Counted from the stretch's first letter, positions 22,267-42,368 are shown. The stretch is 64,000 nt of DNA from an uncultured virus (IMG/VR IMGVR_UViG_3300009068_003844) (IMGVR_UViG_3300009068_003844), one strand, 5' to 3'. Notes: generated by a model not told the origin, from the sequence alone. Numbers and translations: made by a program.

Positions 22267-23084
22267 ATTATAAAAAAATATGAGAGAATTAAATTCTGAG
22301 GACTTGAGTAAGTTCGCAACCAATAACGGCTTCATCATTAAAAAAAAAGATGAAGAATACGAACTTTATAGCAAAACAGAAGATAAGGTTCTGCTTTTCA
22401 AGAGTGTAAAAGAAGCATTTAGAAGAATCTCCGACGAAATTAATATTTTAAAGAAAACAAAAAATGTCCTACATTGATAACGATAAGGAAATCAAAGAGA
22501 CTATTCTCAAGTTGAATAGCCTATTTGAAGCAAATAAAGAAATTTATATCAATCAACTAGATCACAAGGCATATCTTAGTTCTGCTCTTTTCAAGATCAA
22601 GAATAATCTTGAAAGGCTAGTTAAGAATCCAAAGGACTTGCCAGAAGTTATTTTCAATTGCTTTGAAATCGCAAAGCCATTAACGCCATACTATAGCACC
22701 GACCTTGGTAAAAATAAAATTGATCAGCCATTAACCAACGAAGAAAAATTAGGTTTTCTTGAGAAGTTGGAAAAGTTTCAAGTCACGGATGAAATGAAAA
22801 ATAAATACAAGGAAACAGCAGATCAAGGAGGTTAATGTGAACTCTGATTACCGAGTAGTAAATATTGGTGAAATGCAAGACTATTTCATTATTCAAGAAG
22901 TTTACTATAATGATAATGAAGAAGTCGTTGGTTCATCAAATGCAAACCCCTGTGGAAATTCAGTTGAAGAACTGGTACAATTTGCCAATTGTATTTTAAA
23001 TGCAAGTAAAAAACCAGTCCTAAAACTGTAAAAAAGGGGATAAAGGTTTAAAGGTTGATTTTGGTTTGATTTAGGTTGATTTTT

Positions 23085-23361
23085 GGCCCAGTAGCTCAAT
23101 TGGATAAGAGCAACAGCCTTCGTGAAATAGGAGTGCTTAGAGAGAAATCTTTAATGTAGAATCGCTTAAATTCGGTGAAGGCTTAACTGCTAATACCGAG
23201 CCAAGCCTAAGCAATTAGGAAGGTGTAGAGACTTAACAGGCGACACCTAAAGTTGAAAGACAATGGTGAAGATAAAGTCCAGACCACAAACAGTAATGGT
23301 AGTGAAAACTATAGTGGTACCGCTAAGCTGTAGGTTCCAAGTTCGATCCTTGGCTGGGTCA
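23085..23361 (+). tRNA. tRNA-Arg(UCU) interrupted by a group I intron
   Basis: Exons 23085-23120 and 23323-23361 form a cloverleaf: GGCCCAG/CTGGGTC, ACAGC-CTTCTAA-GCTGT, T-loop TTCGATC. Confidence 0.9.
23121..23322 (+). ncRNA. Group I intron (202 nt) inserted after U34 of tRNA-Arg
   Basis: 5' exon ends in U, intron ends in G; core AAATTCGGTGAA, AATACCGAGC, GTAGAGACT, AAGATAAAGTCC. Confidence 0.9.
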
Positions 23362-23426
23362 TTTTGTTTTTTTGTTTTGTTTAGAAAAGTGCAAAGTATT
23401 TACTATTAATATTTTGTGCTAATTAT

Positions 23427-23567
23427 TCCGTGATAACTCAACGGTAGAGTGTTCGACTGTAAAAAGCCACTGAATTGAAGCTCAAAAAAGCTGGCAATTT
23501 ATGTTGGGTTCAATGCCCAAACAGTGGATTAATCGAATGGTTCTTGGTTCAAATCCAAGTCACGGAG
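23427..23567 (+). tRNA. tRNA-Asn(GUU) with a 69-nt insert in the anticodon
   Basis: TCCGTGA/TCACGGA acceptor, G73, D-arm ACTC/GAGT, stem TTCGA/TCGAA, T-arm CTTGG-TTCAAAT-CCAAG. Removing 23461-23529 restores CT-GTT-AA. Confidence 0.75.
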
Positions 23568-23606
23568 CTACAAGCTGGTTTGAATATAAAGAGCTACAAA
23601 CTTTGA

Positions 23607-24173
23607 TTAGTTTTTTCTATCGTGATAATCAACAACTTCTCTGCATAATTTAACAAACTCTTCTGAGCTTAAAGTATGTTTTGCTAAATTGACTTCCTTG
23701 AGAACAAGCTGACAGTTATTTAGAGTATTTTCTCCCCCCTTAGATCTTGGGATTATATGATCCAATTGATATGTTCTAGGTTTCATTAAATCAATTGGTT
23801 TTCCAGTTAATGAGCATGTTGGATTATCTCCAACCTTATCTAAAAAATCTTTAATTGTAAATTCCATGCCAGCATACTCCTTGTTAACTCTAGAGAATCC
23901 TTCTATCCTTATCTTCAGGTTTTTGTGCAATGTATGAATATGCCTATTCTTCGGAACAGGTTTGTAGTATTTATCATAAATAAAATTTTCAATCTTGCGA
24001 ATCAAAGGATGCTGTTTAGATCTGTTTGATTTACGTCTTTTGGCGTATTTTTCTTTTTGACCTTCACCACAATGATACGATATTGTTCCTTTTGAGCACT
24101 TGATCTCATCTTGGATTTTTTTATATGAATATCCCAATGCCCTTAATTCTAATATTTTATCTTTTACTTTCAT
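23607..24173 (-). CDS. Free-standing HNH endonuclease with N-terminal HTH
   Basis: LGYSYKKIQDEIKCSKGTISYH; LDHIIPRSKGGENTLNNCQLVLKEVNLAKH; TATAAATA upstream of ATG 24173. Confidence 0.85.
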   Translation of the reverse strand: MKVKDKILELRALGYSYKKIQDEIKCSKGTISYHCGEGQKEKYAKRRKSNRSKQHPLIRKIENFIYDKYYKPVPKNRHIHTLHKNLKIRIEGFSRVNKEYAGMEFTIKDFLDKVGDNPTCSLTGKPIDLMKPRTYQLDHIIPRSKGGENTLNNCQLVLKEVNLAKHTLSSEEFVKLCREVVDYHDRKN

Positions 24174-25969
24174 GACTTGAACCTTTAATATATTTATATA
24201 TATGCATTGAACCATAATTTTATAAATAAATTCAATCATGATGTAACTTTCTATTGACGAAACAAAAATTTCTGGTATGCTATTAGCACCCACTAACATT
24301 TTTCCAAGGAGGGAAAATGACACGATGCCTTTGTTTGATAGATGATAAATGGATTGAAAGACTTTCTCCAAAGTTTTCAGAAGAAGAAGAAAAAATCTTA
24401 GACGATTGCTCAAGTTCTAATGATGAGAATAGAACTAAGGTTATCAAAGACTTTAATGAAAGAGGATCTCGTCCTGCCTCTTTAGAAGATGTTAAAATAG
24501 CCCAAGAAGTCTACAGTAAGAATAAAGTAATTGGGGCAGAGTTAATCATTGCTAATATCATCCTCCCAGGTTTGCATGGAAGTATAAACTGTAAAGTTGG
24601 TAATGATTATAAAGTGATTAGGTTTTAATATAAGAAAAATTATGAAAACTCTAATAACAATAGAAGTTGAAAATGAAACAGGAAACCCTTCTATTGAGGA
24701 TATTAAATTGTTTGTCAATCAAATCATAGAAAGAGGATTCTTTGGCCCATTTGACATATACAATGTTCAATGAGCGGCATATCGCTAAGAGTTTTAAATG
24801 CAAACTCTAGTAAGAACTCTGAATCTTGAATATGATATTGTTGAGATTCATTATAATGAGTTTTTGAAAAATAAACCTTACTTGGTCAGAGTATTTAGTT
24901 ATAACAATACTGACCCCAGCGAAATAAGGCTGGACGAAAAAGAAGTAAAAAATTTATATCAAACTCTTAAAGAACACAACCTATTATGAACTTCAGAATA
25001 ACCAAAGAAATTCGTAATCATAAATACGACCATGATCCCAAGACCATTTATGGTATTAGGGATGCTGCTGGTGTTGATACAGACTTATCAGAGTGGAAAT
25101 TTATATACGGAGACAAGAAATGAACGAAAACGATAAATTACTTAAAGCAATTATTTTATTTATCACGATTATCATTATGATGTTGGCATTCATAATGACT
25201 TTTATTTCATACAAAATAAGTGAAGATGTAAAAAATATTAGATTGGATTTAGTTATGCTGAAGGGTGAAGTAAACTCTGAGATGGAAAAAAACAACCAAG
25301 GAGAAAAGAAATGAACAGAAGAAGTCTTATTAAATCTTTGTTGCCAACAATGGCTGGAATTTTAGTTTTTAAAAATTCATACGGTGCATATTTAAGAACT
25401 AAAGAACACCAGACAATATACAAAGGAAAAAATTTGTGTGTTATTTCTAAGTCTGAAATGCTAGAAAGAGCAAAAAAATTAAATATTTACATTCCATTTT
25501 GTAAGATGGATCATCATAAATCAAACATTATAGAAGAAATGAAATATTTTGTAGATCAATCACTGAGGTATAATTTTTACAATGATTTAGAAAAAAATAT
25601 TTATGGATGTTGTGAAGGAAGAAGATCAAAAAACGGCTCATTAGGGATATATTTTGCTGTAATTGCATCGCAATACGATTTTCTGCAAGATGATCGAACA
25701 CCGGCTTATTACTCGCAAGACCCTGGGTAGAAAAGTGACTAAATACAAAATTTGTAAATTTGTTGATGGTAACGGAAAAGAATGGTATCAAGTCAAGAAA
25801 AAGGGGTGGTTATTTTGGCGTTATTTGGATACATTTGAAAAAATTGGACTACGTTCTTATAGAGTTATTCTTAAACTTTCTAATGTAGAAGAAGCAAACA
25901 AATACATTGAAGGAGATAAATGGTTTGATAAATCAAATCAAATTAAAAAAGTAGAATGTTGGAATTATA

Positions 25970-30365: not shown

Positions 30366-30465
30366 GGTGAATGTAGCGTAGTGGTAGCGTGAGGGAAGTT
30401 CCGAACTGCGACAGCAGAGTAGGCAAACAAATGCCCTTGTGGTGGTTCGATTCCACCCATTCGCC
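30366..30465 (+). ncRNA. tRNA-like RNA (8-bp His-type acceptor) with an expanded non-canonical anticodon region
   Basis: GGTGAATG/CATTCGCC, D-arm GCGT-AGTGGTA-GCGT, GAGGG/CCCTT enclosing 38 nt, T-arm GGTGG-TTCGATT-CCACC; promoter TTTACA-16-TATACT directly upstream. Confidence 0.7.
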
Positions 30466-37413: not shown

Positions 37414-37700
37414 GCCAAAGTGGCGAAATAGGCAGACGCAAGGGACTTGATATTAAATTGAGTGCCTAAAAGGAAACTTTTAGAGCAGAACTGCTCAAAT
37501 TCGGTGAAGGCTTAACTGCTAATACCGAGCCAAGCCTGAGAAATCAGGAAGGTGTAGAGACTTGACGGGCAGCACCTAAAACTGAGAAGTTATGGTGAAG
37601 GTAAAGTCCAGACTACAAACCGCAAGGGTAGTGAAAACTATAGTGGTAAGAAAATCCCTCGGGATAACATCCTGTGCGGGTTCGACCCCCGCCTTTGGCA
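37414..37700 (+). tRNA. tRNA-Leu(UAA) interrupted by a group I intron
   Basis: Exons 37414-37448 and 37651-37700: GCCAAAG/CTTTGGC, AGGGA-CTTAAAA-TCCCT, long variable arm, T-loop TTCGACC. Confidence 0.92.
37449..37650 (+). ncRNA. Group I intron (202 nt) after U34 of tRNA-Leu
   Basis: U at 5' exon end, terminal G; core nearly identical to the tRNA-Arg intron. Confidence 0.9.
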
Positions 37701-41430: not shown

Positions 41431-42084
41431 TTGATCAAGATCATTAAAGAAATTGTTTCAAAAGAAACTCATTGCTATGTTGCCGTAAGCATGGGTGTCG
41501 ATAGCGTATCTTCTTTATTTTGGTTGAGAAGCAAGGGATACAACATTACTCCATTGCACTTTAATCATAATCTAAGAGAACAGAACCATGCCATGGAAAA
41601 TAAGTTCCATGAACTTTGTGGTAAATTAGGATTAAAGGGCATTGTGGGTAAGGGCCAAAATTTAAAAACAGAAAAAGATTGCAGGGAGGCCCGCTTAAAT
41701 TTTTATAAAGAGGTTGTGGATTACGAAGGTTATGTAATCACTGCTCATCATCTCAATGATTATGTGGAAAGCTATTTAATTAATTGTTTTCGTGGACAAC
41801 CCAATCACAATCCTTTTGAATTAATTAGCGAGTTCGATGGATTCAAGATCATCCATCCTTTTCTATTAAGTAAGAAAAAAGATTTTCAAGAGTACGTTGA
41901 CAGGAATAAATGGAATTGCTATACTGTGGAGGACGAAACCAATAAGGTTGTCAAAGGAAGCAGAAGAAATTGGATTCGTCAAACAATCATTCCAGAAATG
42001 AAAAAACAAAAGTTAAGTCTAGAAAAATATTGTTCAAGGAGAATTGAAAAAAACTTGAAGAATAAGACGGTAATTCTAGACTAG
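41431..42084 (+). CDS. tilS: tRNA(Ile)-lysidine synthetase-like, PP-loop domain only
   Basis: VAVSMGVDS, LHFNHNLR, EKDCREARLNF, ITAHHLNDYVESYL, SRRNWIRQTIIP; CAU tRNA starts 17 nt downstream. Confidence 0.85.
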   Translation: MIKIIKEIVSKETHCYVAVSMGVDSVSSLFWLRSKGYNITPLHFNHNLREQNHAMENKFHELCGKLGLKGIVGKGQNLKTEKDCREARLNFYKEVVDYEGYVITAHHLNDYVESYLINCFRGQPNHNPFELISEFDGFKIIHPFLLSKKKDFQEYVDRNKWNCYTVEDETNKVVKGSRRNWIRQTIIPEMKKQKLSLEKYCSRRIEKNLKNKTVILD

Positions 42085-42100
42085 CACAGTTGGTTAATTT

Positions 42101-42364
42101 CCGAAGGTAGCAAAACGGTTAATGCAACAAACTCATGAATTTTCGTGCCATACGATTGGAAACTTCGTATGGGATGTCGTCAAATTCGGTGAAACCTAAA
42201 TGCGTGAGCATATGGCAATGCCGAGCGAAGCCCGTAAGGGAACGTGTAGAGACTTAACGGCGACCACCTAAATCGTAAGATATGGTGAAGACAAAGTCCA
42301 AGGAGTGGTGAAAATCACACAAACTTGAATTTGTAGACTGTGGGTTCGAATCCCACCCTTCGGA
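42101..42364 (+). tRNA. tRNA(CAU), probably Ile2, interrupted by a group I intron
   Basis: Exons 42101-42136 and 42328-42364: CCGAAGG/CCTTCGG, ACAAA-CTCATAA-TTTGT, GTGGG-TTCGAAT-CCCAC. Ile2 inferred from adjacent tilS. Confidence 0.85.
42137..42327 (+). ncRNA. Compact group I intron (191 nt) after U36
   Basis: CAT^ exon end, terminal G; core AAATTCGGTGAA, AATGCCGAGC, GTAGAGACT, AAGACAAAGTCC. Confidence 0.88.
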
Positions 42365-42368
42365 CGTA

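What the first reader, a model, noticed from the sequence alone, without database searches (positions are those of the whole stretch)
23427..23567. tRNA-Asn with a 69-nt tRNA-like element nested in its anticodon
Seen in sequence: an otherwise canonical tRNA-Asn has a 69-nt insert (23461-23529) splitting GUU. It is too short for a group I or II intron, lacks their core motifs and does not end in G. It folds into CCACTG/CAGTGG (acceptor-like, followed by A), a central AATTG..AGCT/AGCT..CAATT hairpin and TTGGG-TTCAATG-CCCAA (T-arm-like). Inference: it could be a new mini-intron removed by tRNA-processing nucleases plus a ligase, a shield against host anticodon nucleases, or a decoy RNA. An alternative reading is CT-GTA-A with an intron at 37/38, but the acceptor stem and G73 are Asn-like.
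Basis: partly seen in the sequence, partly recalled or inferred. Interest (0 to 1): 0.8.

Follow-up and report, generated by a model that had tools for sequence, protein, structure and literature searches.

The report
Tiny tRNA-shaped intron in phage tRNA-Asn
A large T4-like freshwater phage has its asparagine tRNA gene split inside the anticodon by a conserved 65-69-base insert that matches no known self-splicing or archaeal-type intron, so it probably needs a tRNA-splicing route not yet described in bacteria.

Summary
Window 23427-23567 is a tRNA-Asn(GUU) gene split between anticodon bases U35 and U36 by a 69-nt insert (23461-23529).

- **Family.** I found the same insert family (65-69 nt, same site) in six alleles from six contigs of T4-like freshwater phages.
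- **Exons.** All 126 of 126 stem cells pair, and 16 of 21 pairs changed on both sides. Joined at CUGU|UAA, the exons reproduce the anticodon arm of 82 uninterrupted phage tRNA-Asn genes. This settles the Asn reading and rejects the Tyr one.
- **Insert.** It is more conserved than the exons (96% against 72% identity, window against L022). It folds as a three-way junction: a closing stem, a hairpin and a T-arm-like hairpin with loop UUCAA.
- **What it is not.** It is not a group I intron, not a bulge-helix-bulge intron, not any Rfam ribozyme, and not a tRNA to tRNA finders.
- **Best reading.** A real, horizontally spreading mini-intron. It is probably cut out by tRNA end-processing nucleases, with RNase Z fitting the 3' border. 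The exons would be sealed by the phage's T4 Rnl1-type ligase, found in two of three records.
- **Open points.** The 5' cut is unexplained and no RNA data exist.

The scan noted similar inserts earlier in a Lak megaphage; they were first printed in 2019 and never explained.

The parts
23427..23460 (+). 5' exon of tRNA-Asn(GUU): acceptor 5' strand, D arm, anticodon stem 5' strand, and loop bases C32 U33 G34 U35
   Evidence: Rfam tRNA model 53.8 bits; ARAGORN with introns allowed; all stems stay paired and change in a compensated way across six alleles
23461..23466 (+). 5' linker of the insert (AAAAAG). Its form in six alleles is NNAAAG, with the last four bases invariant
   Evidence: Alignments. 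RNAalifold pairs its last AG with exon C32 U33, but all of these bases are invariant, so the pairing cannot be tested
23467..23472 (+). P1 5' strand (CCACTG), the closing 'acceptor-like' stem of the insert
   Evidence: Folds. All 6 pairs are invariant in 6 of 6 alleles, so there is no covariation for or against
23473..23499 (+). P2 hairpin: AATTG-A-AGCT, loop CAAAAA, AGCT-GG-CAATT. 'AAGCTCAAAAA' is invariant, and G residues 3' of the loop are kept in all six alleles
   Evidence: 2 of 9 pairs changed on both sides (both in L236, TT/AA to CC/GG), and 48 of 54 cells are paired. Sequences
23500..23503 (+). Junction between P2 and P3 (TATG), variable in length (4, 2 or 0 nt among alleles)
23504..23520 (+). 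P3, the T-arm-like hairpin: 5-bp stem TTGGG/CCCAA and 7-nt loop TTCAATG. The first five loop bases, UUCAA, are invariant
   Evidence: (28 of 30 cells paired, one G-C to G-U change). The best local match of the insert to a neighbouring tRNA is that tRNA's T arm, but this score is within the shuffle range
23521..23529 (+). Unpaired A (absent in 2 alleles), P1 3' strand CAGTGG (23522-23527), and 2-nt tail A+N (23528-23529) ending at the 3' border
   Evidence: The 3' border lies 2 nt after P1 in 6 of 6 alleles
23530..23567 (+). 3' exon: U36 A37 A38, anticodon stem 3' strand, variable loop, T arm, acceptor 3' strand, G73. No encoded CCA
   Evidence: 0 of 11 tRNA genes of this genome encode CCA
23607..24176 (-). 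Free-standing HNH endonuclease gene directly downstream, on the other strand (about 189 aa from the MKVKDK start; the open frame runs to 24413)
   Evidence: Pfam HNH_4 and HNH. The gene is full length in the window and L022 (85% identity). Only C-terminal remnants of 43 and 25 codons remain in L002 and L024
23084..23362 (+). Neighbouring tRNA-Arg(UCU) gene with a 202-nt group I intron. It serves as an internal control for what a group I tRNA intron looks like in this phage
   Evidence: Rfam RF00028 at 59.3 bits over 23110-23303; ARAGORN; 1 change across its roughly 280 nt between the window and L002; the intron is absent in L024

Best explanation
The 69-nt insert is a genuine mini-intron of a working phage tRNA-Asn(GUU) gene. 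It belongs to a small family (65-69 nt) that sits between anticodon bases U35 and U36 in several T4-like freshwater phages, and it has moved between diverged tRNA-Asn genes.

**How it probably works (inferred).** The RNA folds into a three-way junction. A closing stem stacks against a T-arm-like hairpin, copying the acceptor/T-arm half of a tRNA, which is the part read by tRNA end-processing enzymes. Host RNase Z-type cleavage one base after the closing stem (extended by a G.A apposition) would make exactly the 3' border. An RNase P-type cut, or a still unknown nuclease, would free the 5' side. The phage's T4 Rnl1-type RNA ligase, which seals broken anticodon loops, would join U35 to U36.

**Shown here**
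- the borders
- the conservation of the insert
- the integrity of the exons
- the decoupled histories of exons and insert
- the absence of known intron and ribozyme signatures

**Inferred, not shown**
- that the insert is spliced at all
- which enzymes do it

My odds: about 0.7 that the insert is removed to give a working tRNA, and about 0.3 for the specific RNase Z/P plus Rnl1 route.
For: **Borders and identity**
- L022 and L120 inserts end in A, so only CUGU|UAA gives a 7-nt loop with one anticodon (GUU) in all six alleles.
- The pattern AGCGGCTGT-N{0,30}-TAACCGCTAGGTT hit 82 viral loci, all with gap 0. These are uninterrupted tRNA-Asn genes, 52 distinct sequences.
- L022 and L120 exons match uninterrupted genes at 65 of 72 bases (80 of the 82 genes were used, 2 lay too close to a locus end).

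**Exons are kept functional**
- In the six alleles, 126 of 126 exon stem cells pair, and 16 of 21 pairs changed on both sides (on an alignment fitted to the model).
- The plain MAFFT alignment of four alleles gives 84 of 84 cells paired and 15 of 21 pairs changed on both sides.
- L120 and L236 share one exon type. Their exons differ at 4 of 72 bases. By my reading of the alignment, none of the four breaks a pair: one G.U to A-U change, position 26, and two T-loop bases. Their inserts match at only 54 of 65 bases.
- No second tRNA-Asn gene lies in the sequenced parts of G000 or G001.

**The insert is under constraint**
- Invariant in 6 of 6 alleles: AAAG of the linker, P1, AAGCUCAAAAA, UUCAA of the T-like loop, and the tail A.
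- Two compensatory pairs in P2 and one G-C to G.U change in P3.
- The insert model found L236, which was not in its training set, at 61 bits.

**The insert and exons have different histories**
- Window against L022: exons 52 of 72, insert 66 of 69. Window against L120: 49 of 72 against 60 of 65.
- The adjacent tRNA-Arg gene differs by 1 base in about 280 nt between the window and L002.

**The gene looks expressed**
- In G002 the interrupted gene has its own promoter-like site (TTGATT-16-TATAAT, 10 of 12) and a 16-bp terminator hairpin.

**Context for the proposed enzymes**
- 0 of 11 tRNA genes encode CCA.
- Two PolyA_pol-head (CCA-adding type) genes are present.
- T4 Rnl1 family PF09511 scores above its cut-off in G001 and G002.
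- The 3' border lies 2 nt after P1 in 6 of 6 alleles. The Lak megaphage introns printed in Table S6 of PMC6784885 end 1-2 nt after their nested acceptor stem (my reading of the printed sequences).
Against: - **No RNA evidence at all.** No listed run is on record as RNA.
- **The 5' cut is unexplained.** An RNase P cut at the inner stem would leave NNAAA(G) on the 5' exon, and nothing I found explains its exact removal.
- **The insert is not a tRNA to the tools.** Rfam's tRNA model gives nothing on it at E up to 10, and ARAGORN mitochondrial mode of 6 alleles.
- **P1 cannot be tested.** It never varies, so its pairing rests on thermodynamics only. Two P2 and one P3 positions lose pairing in some alleles.
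- **The ligase evidence is weak.** Rnl1 was not found in the window's own record, a fragment estimated about 50% complete. By general knowledge it is common in T4-like phages whether or not they carry this insert.
- **A recent selfish insertion is not excluded.** Phage tRNAs are often dispensable, so a recent insertion could leave the exons looking intact.
Confidence: 0.5

Rival explanations
1. Selfish insertion in a dispensable gene. The insert is a mobile DNA element, perhaps spread by the neighbouring HNH endonuclease, that knocks out a phage tRNA the phage can live without. It is never spliced.
For: - The insert's history is decoupled from that of the exons.
- An HNH endonuclease gene lies next to it in the window and L022, and decayed copies lie in L002 and L024.
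- No splicing signature of any known kind was found.
- Only 1 of 207 tRNAs in 116 other group-I-bearing phage loci has a short insert, and that one is an allele of this same family.
Against: - The exons show no decay: 126 of 126 stem cells pair.
- In the L120/L236 pair, which shares an exon type, exons differ at 4 of 72 tolerated positions while the inserts match at only 54 of 65.
- The insert itself keeps invariant blocks and shows compensatory change.
- The G002 allele keeps a promoter-like site and a terminator.
- There is no target-site duplication and only one copy per genome.
Confidence: 0.17
2. A new, very small self-splicing or self-cleaving RNA. The invariant blocks (AAAG, P1, AAGCUCAAAAA, UUCAA) would form a catalytic core that cuts both borders. 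The exons would then be rejoined by the RNA itself or by a ligase.
For: - Sequence conservation is stronger than the helices alone would need.
- The 5' exon ends in U, and the site lies inside the anticodon, as with group I tRNA introns in this same genome.
- Known bacterial and phage tRNA introns are self-splicing (general knowledge).
Against: - No Rfam ribozyme family matches at E up to 10.
- I could draw no hammerhead or HDV-like core by hand.
- 65 nt is far below any known self-splicing intron.
- Two separate cuts would be needed.
- The insert does not end in G.
Confidence: 0.1
3. The product is the insert, not the tRNA. The outer tRNA gene serves as a carrier that gets a small tRNA-shaped RNA transcribed and cut out by RNase P/Z, as happens with nested tRNA-like RNAs elsewhere. 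Alternatively, the unspliced RNA acts as a decoy for host tRNA-targeting nucleases.
For: - The insert is the best-conserved part of the locus across exon types.
- T-loop-like UUCAA and G residues that could mimic the tRNA elbow are invariant.
- The GUN-anticodon tRNAs are known nuclease targets (general knowledge, recalled).
Against: - This does not explain why the exons keep a perfect, compensated cloverleaf and an exact GU|U anticodon.
- No free-standing copy of the insert was found outside tRNA-Asn: 964 kb of phage DNA, IMG/VR pattern scans, and GTDB genomes.
Confidence: 0.1
4. A decayed remnant of a group I intron, left by an internal deletion from the kind of intron that splits four other tRNA genes of this phage.
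For: - Four of the 11 tRNA genes in this genome carry 191-202-nt group I introns in the anticodon loop.
- Their presence varies among relatives.
- The 5' exon ends in U.
Against: - Local alignment of the insert to each of the four introns scores at the mean of 300 shuffles; between 55 and 192 of 300 shuffles score as high.
- There is no RF00028 match on the insert.
- The insert is conserved and structured in six alleles, which a dead remnant would not be.
Confidence: 0.03

Closest known systems
'Enigmatic' tRNA introns of Lak megaphages (Devoto et al. 2019, Nat Microbiol, PMC6784885; I read passages of the text and Table S6)
   Same: - A short insert in the anticodon loop of a large-phage tRNA gene.
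- No Rfam hit.
- A nested tRNA-shaped element at the 3' end, with the 3' border 1-2 nt after its closing stem.
- Highly conserved sequence.
- Presence/absence variation among related tRNA genes.
   Different: - Lak introns are 79-141 nt and start with a small hairpin plus an A/U-rich spacer of about 27-30 nt. Here only a 6-nt linker precedes the nested element.
- One Lak nested element scores as a tRNA in Rfam. This one does not.
- The Lak borders lie at or near 36/37-37/38. Here the border is 35/36, inside the anticodon.
- The phage lineage differs: T4-like, 36% G+C, freshwater, against 26% G+C gut Lak phages.
- I ran no sequence comparison.
Group I introns in bacterial and phage tRNA anticodon loops (Rfam RF00028; four examples in this genome)
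   Same: - Sits inside the anticodon loop.
- The 5' exon ends in U.
- No open reading frame in the insert.
- Patchy distribution among relatives, and a free-standing HNH endonuclease gene close by.
   Different: - 65-69 nt against 191-202 nt.
- No catalytic core, and no terminal G.
- No sequence similarity to the resident group I introns.
Archaeal/eukaryal tRNA introns cut at a bulge-helix-bulge motif by the splicing endonuclease and joined by RtcB or Trl1
   Same: A short, protein-dependent (if my reading is right) intron in the anticodon region. A closing helix brings the two borders together.
   Different: - No 3-nt/4-bp/3-nt bulge-helix-bulge; the borders lie in a 10-nt/5-nt asymmetric internal loop.
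- No splicing endonuclease or RtcB gene in 0 of 3 phage records.
- The hosts of T4-like phages are bacteria, which lack that endonuclease (general knowledge).
tRNA-like RNAs released from longer transcripts by RNase P and RNase Z (for example mascRNA from MALAT1; recalled, no call)
   Same: An element of about 57-61 nt with an acceptor-like stem and a T arm, embedded in a longer RNA, and without encoded CCA.
   Different: Those are cut from the end of a long non-coding RNA and nothing is rejoined. Here the flanks are the two halves of a tRNA that must be ligated.
T4 anticodon-loop repair by Pnkp and RNA ligase 1 after PrrC cleavage (recalled)
   Same: A T4-type Rnl1 ligase (PF09511, present in G001 and G002) seals a break in a tRNA anticodon loop.
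   Different: In T4 this repairs host-inflicted damage to host tRNA-Lys. Here it would be a routine maturation step of a phage tRNA. This is untested.

Membership tests
tRNA (Rfam RF00005), outer gene | Cloverleaf scored by the covariance model above the gathering score | tested here: met
   53.8 bits against a gathering score of 29, with a 70-nt insertion in the anticodon loop. 126 of 126 exon stem cells pair in six alleles
tRNA-Asn(GUU) | Anticodon GUU after joining, discriminator G73, and likeness to uninterrupted tRNA-Asn genes | tested here: met
   CUGU|UAA in 6 of 6 alleles. G73 in 6 of 6. 82 uninterrupted phage genes share the joined arm. Best exon identity to an uninterrupted gene is 65 of 72
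Group I intron (RF00028) | Catalytic core P3-P9 detectable by the family model | tested here: not met
   No RF00028 match on the insert at E up to 10. The same model scores the neighbouring intron at 59.3 bits
Group I intron (RF00028) | Terminal G at the 3' end of the intron | tested here: not met
   The insert ends in U (4 alleles) or A (2 alleles)
Group I intron (RF00028) | U as the last base of the 5' exon | tested here: met
   U35 in 6 of 6 alleles
Bulge-helix-bulge (splicing-endonuclease) tRNA intron | Two 3-nt bulges holding the borders, separated by a 4-bp helix | tested here: not met
   Predicted folds place the borders in a 10-nt/5-nt internal loop between the anticodon stem and P1
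Bulge-helix-bulge (splicing-endonuclease) tRNA intron | Splicing endonuclease (PF01974) available | tested here: not met
   0 of 3 phage records; the control search rings in 4 archaea. The host genome is unknown, so the host side is not testable
Lak-megaphage 'enigmatic' tRNA introns | Anticodon-loop insert of a large-phage tRNA with a nested tRNA-shaped element at its 3' end, border 1-2 nt after that element's closing stem | tested here: met
   The border lies 2 nt after P1 in 6 of 6 alleles. For the Lak layout I read the sequences in Table S6
Lak-megaphage 'enigmatic' tRNA introns | 5' hairpin plus A/U-rich spacer before the nested element | tested here: not met
   Only the 6-nt linker NNAAAG precedes P1
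Lak-megaphage 'enigmatic' tRNA introns | Sequence homology to the Lak introns | not tested
   The Lak sequences were only read in the paper's supplement and were not held as loci. No alignment was run
Known small self-cleaving ribozymes (hammerhead, twister, pistol, hatchet, HDV-like and others in Rfam 15) | Match to a family covariance model | tested here: not met
   None at E up to 10 on the insert alone or on 22800-24000
tRNA / armless tRNA (the insert itself) | Called as a tRNA by a tRNA model or finder | tested here: not met
   No RF00005 match on the insert. ARAGORN mitochondrial modes of 6 alleles. Only a 6-bp closing stem next to a 5-bp/7-nt T-arm-like hairpin resembles tRNA

The most novel reading that the evidence does not exclude
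The 65-69-nt insert is a self-splicing RNA of a new class and by far the smallest known. Its invariant blocks (AAAG, CCACUG/CAGUGG, AAGCUCAAAAA, UUCAA) would form the active site. Nothing here excludes this, because no RNA or biochemical data exist and sequence conservation exceeds what the helices need. A less radical novel reading, which I rate at about 0.3, is a bacterial tRNA-splicing pathway built from RNase Z/P and a phage Rnl1 ligase.
Probability: 0.1. Interest if true: 0.95.

Novelty: new variant of a known kind. Interest (0 to 1): 0.68.

Why it matters
Textbook knowledge says bacterial and phage tRNA introns are self-splicing group I (rarely group II) introns, and that protein-made tRNA splicing belongs to archaea and eukaryotes.

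Short, non-group-I inserts in phage tRNA genes were noticed once, in Lak megaphages in 2019, and were left unexplained. This locus shows the same thing in an unrelated T4-like lineage. It also adds several pieces the earlier report lacked:
- exact borders, fixed by 82 uninterrupted homologues
- exon evolution that argues the gene still works
- a small, well-defined RNA that can be made and tested in a day

If the insert is removed by RNase Z/P plus Rnl1, that would be a third way to splice tRNA and a new routine job for the T4 RNA-repair ligase. If it removes itself, it would be a new ribozyme.

In either case it would mean that tRNA gene finders run in bacterial mode undercount phage tRNAs. 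Default ARAGORN missed this gene.

Tried and rejected
**Searches that found no further members**
- The GenBank phage collection (blastn, distant mode) matched only the group I intron part of 22900-23700. Nothing matched the tRNA-Asn gene or the insert.
- The first exact or over-strict patterns found nothing or only G001. Looser ones found the family.
- One search returned 95 loci, of which 3 are true members. One search returned 16 loci, of which 3 are true. The rest are unrelated coding DNA.
- GTDB genomes: 0 matches.
- The insert covariance model over 964 kb (all of G000 and G001, L022, L024 and L236, and 66 group-I-bearing viral loci) found only the known copies, plus two weak hits at E about 0.2. 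One is a terminator-like hairpin and one is an ordinary tRNA-Ile gene.

**RNA evidence**
- No RNA holder was listed for the stretch.
- I laid contigs of four DNA runs. X10 and X6 carry the L002/L024-type allele across the insert, and X4 carries the window-type 3' part. No contig joins across the insert. Most of the base-difference rows for the insert were cut from the output.

**Readings considered and dropped**
- Tyr(GUA) with a 37/38 intron: rejected.
- Deletion derivative of the resident group I introns: no similarity.
- Transposon-like element: one copy per genome, and I see no target duplication in the aligned borders.
- Hand searches for a hammerhead or HDV-like core, and for a linker/3'-exon pairing that would place an RNase P cut at the 5' border. 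None is conserved among the alleles.
- An alternative helix between exon CUGU and insert ACAG exists in all alleles. If used by RNase P it would direct a cut inside the exon, so I do not propose it.

**Other negative results**
- Phage-encoded RNase P RNA: 0 of 3 records.
- RtcB: 0 of 3.
- Rnl2 family: 0 of 3 above the cut-off.
- Literature: three full-text searches gave only Devoto et al. 2019 on non-group-I phage tRNA introns. I found no paper on this family.

Full report
**1. What is there**

The window lies on a 251,265-bp IMG/VR virus record (G000, minus strand, CheckV estimate about 50% complete). The record comes from freshwater metagenomes. Pfam places it among T4-like phages: Gp23 capsid, Gp20 portal carrying an intein, and the prohead protease.

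- Rfam's tRNA model matches the whole stretch at 53.8 bits with a 70-nt insertion in the anticodon loop.
- ARAGORN misses the gene in default mode.
- With introns allowed it calls tRNA-Asn(gtt) with a 69-nt intron at 23461-23529.

**2. Genome context**

With introns allowed, ARAGORN finds 11 tRNA genes in G000, and 6 of them are interrupted.
- Four carry 191-202-nt inserts: tRNA(UCA), tRNA(CAU), tRNA-Leu(UAA) and tRNA-Arg(UCU). The three that lie inside the window score as group I introns in Rfam at 59.3, 59.2 and 50.8 bits.
- Two carry short inserts: this one, and a 27-31-nt insert at 30367-30465.

So the phage offers an internal control for what a group I tRNA intron looks like, and the 69-nt insert is unlike it. 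It has no RF00028 match at E up to 10. Its local-alignment scores against each of the four introns sit at the shuffle mean. It has no terminal G. No other Rfam family matches either, including the self-cleaving ribozymes.

**3. Relatives**

Searches by a neighbouring protein and by DNA patterns gave five further alleles, all at the same place in a tRNA-Asn gene.

| Allele | Source | Found in calls |
|---|---|---|
| L002/L023 | G001, 323,267-bp virus record | 27-30 |
| L022 | 5,924-nt metagenome contig | 39, 40 |
| L024 | 10,190-nt metagenome contig | 39, 40 |
| L120/L228 | G002, 187,644-bp virus record | 53-55 |
| L236 | 13,351-bp contig, next to a T4-type portal gene | 59, 60, 70 |

- Contigs of two further public runs carry the L002/L024-type allele across the insert.
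- Nothing was found in GenBank phages or in GTDB genomes.
- There is only one copy per genome.

**4. Borders and identity**

In the window the border is ambiguous by one T, and the reading CT-GTA-A is possible. The other alleles settle it.
- L023 and L024 have CC in place of the window's AA after CTGT.
- L022 and L120 end the insert in A.
- Only CUGU|UAA gives a 7-nt loop and one anticodon, GUU, in all six.
- Independently, a pattern made of the two exon halves of the L022/L120/L236 arm with a 0-30-nt gap hit 82 viral loci, all with gap 0. These are uninterrupted tRNA-Asn(GUU) genes, 52 distinct sequences, with U1-A72 and G73 like the interrupted ones.

So the insert lies exactly between U35 and U36.

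**5. The exons behave like a working tRNA**

- On six alleles aligned to a covariance model, the four exon helices hold 21 pairs. Of these, 16 changed on both sides and 126 of 126 cells pair. That alignment leans towards the structure.
- The plain MAFFT alignment of four alleles gives 15 of 21 pairs changed on both sides and 84 of 84 cells paired.
- Sliding the partners by 1-3 columns drops pairing to 30-44%.
- The pair L120/L236 shares one exon type. Their exons differ at 4 of 72 bases. By my reading, none of the four breaks a pair: one G.U to A-U change, position 26, and two T-loop bases. Their inserts match at only 54 of 65 bases. This is the pattern expected if the interrupted gene stayed under selection.
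- In G002 the gene has its own promoter-like site and a strong terminator hairpin.
- No other tRNA-Asn gene lies in the sequenced parts of G000 or G001.

**6. The insert is constrained, and its history differs from that of the exons**

Invariant in six alleles:
- AAAG of the 6-nt linker
- the closing stem P1 (CCACUG/CAGUGG)
- AAGCUCAAAAA in P2
- UUCAA in the 7-nt loop of P3
- the A after P1

Variable parts:
- the first two linker bases
- the P2-P3 junction (4, 2 or 0 nt)
- the last loop bases of P3
- one unpaired A
- the last base of the insert

Structural support from covariation is thin. P1 never varies. P2 has two compensated pairs, both in L236. P3 has one G-C to G.U change. Three P2 pairs and one P3 pair lose pairing in one or two alleles each.

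Between exon types the insert is far more alike than the exons:
- Window against L022: 66 of 69 for the insert, 52 of 72 for the exons.
- Window against L120: 60 of 65 against 49 of 72.
- L022 and L120 exons are closer to uninterrupted genes (65 of 72) than to most other interrupted alleles.
- The tRNA-Arg gene 60 nt upstream differs by 1 base in about 280 nt between the window and L002.

The simplest account is that the insert has moved, or been copied by conversion, between diverged tRNA-Asn genes.

A free-standing HNH endonuclease gene lies right behind the tRNA in the window and in L022. It has decayed to 43- and 25-codon remnants in L002 and L024. This fits the usual gain-and-decay cycle of homing endonucleases. 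Its target is untested. G002 and L236 have no such neighbour.

**7. How it may be removed (inference)**

P3 is a 5-bp stem with a 7-nt loop starting UUCAA. Its 3' strand abuts the 3' strand of P1 with 0-1 nt between, as a T arm abuts the acceptor stem in tRNA. Acceptor plus T arm is the part read by RNase P, RNase Z and the CCA-adding enzyme (general knowledge).

Points that fit this route:
- If the G before P1 and the A after it are counted as a seventh, mismatched pair, the next base is a discriminator. The 3' border then falls exactly where RNase Z cuts, in 6 of 6 alleles.
- The Lak introns printed in Table S6 of PMC6784885 end in the same way, 1-2 nt after their nested acceptor stem (my reading).
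- None of the 11 tRNA genes here encodes CCA, and the phage has two CCA-adding-type genes. Its tRNAs therefore already depend on this kind of 3' processing.
- RNase P and RNase Z leave 3'-OH and 5'-phosphate ends. T4 Rnl1 joins such ends in anticodon loops, and PF09511 scores above its cut-off in G001 and G002.

Points that do not fit, or that weaken it:
- PF09511 was not found in the G000 fragment.
- RtcB and the archaeal splicing endonuclease are absent from all three records, as is an RNase P RNA gene.
- The main hole is the 5' side. An RNase P cut at P1 leaves NNAAA(G) on the 5' exon. I found no conserved pairing or rule that would place a cut at U35.
- The insert is not called a tRNA by Rfam or by ARAGORN in armless mode.

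**8. Known things it resembles**

- The nearest printed parallel is the 'enigmatic' introns of Lak megaphages (PMC6784885). An earlier agent of this scan also described these (e1-5959538), and that note led me to the paper.
- The present family differs from them in phage lineage, tRNA species, border position, size and 5' layout.
- Three full-text searches found no later explanation and no report of this family.

**9. Verdict**

This is a real, conserved, apparently mobile mini-intron of a kind noticed once before and never explained. The mechanism is still open, and the RNA is small enough to settle it quickly at the bench.

Noticed in passing
window 30367-30465: A second tRNA gene with a short insert (27 nt by ARAGORN, a 38-nt loop by Rfam, 38.2 bits). 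It has an extra 5' G opposite C73, as in tRNA-His, yet no GUG anticodon is visible, and ARAGORN's Gly(UCC) reading needs an A.G mismatch. It is 100% identical in G001, so the comparison gives no information.
   Followed up: partly
window 23084-23362, 37414-37700, 42101-42365: Three tRNA genes with ORF-less group I introns of about 190-200 nt in the anticodon loop (Arg-UCU, Leu-UAA, CAU). Their presence varies among close relatives: L024 has an intron-less tRNA-Arg and G001 an intron-less tRNA-Leu(UAA). Related introns were very abundant in the four freshwater runs laid (summed contig depth up to about 390).
   Followed up: partly
window 41431-42084 and 42101-42365: A PP-loop ATPase gene (Pfam ATP_bind_3, the TilS-type family) lies directly upstream of the intron-bearing tRNA(CAU). 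This suggests the tRNA is a lysidine-modified tRNA-Ile2 and not tRNA-Met.
   Followed up: no
window 23568-23606: The roughly 40 nt between the tRNA-Asn 3' end and the HNH stop codon exist only in the HNH-bearing alleles (window, L022). In L022 they read like a leftover T arm (..CTGGTTCGAATCT..), as if the endonuclease gene arrived together with a partial tRNA 3' duplication.
   Followed up: no
window 23427-23567 compared with L002, L022, L120: The tRNA-Asn exons are a mosaic among otherwise 97-99% identical phages: three acceptor-stem types, three T-stem types and three anticodon-stem types in different combinations. This makes the gene a recombination or diversification hot spot next to a homing-endonuclease gene.
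   Followed up: partly
G000:C1:144281-144554 (outside the window): A tRNA with anticodon UCA (reads UGA), itself split by a 202-nt group I intron. It could be a suppressor or a sign of UGA recoding. I did not test coding frames under another code.
   Followed up: no
G000:C1:11459-13966 (outside the window): The T4-type portal protein gene carries an intein (Pfam Intein_splicing, residues 115-331). This is another mobile element in a genome already rich in introns.
   Followed up: no
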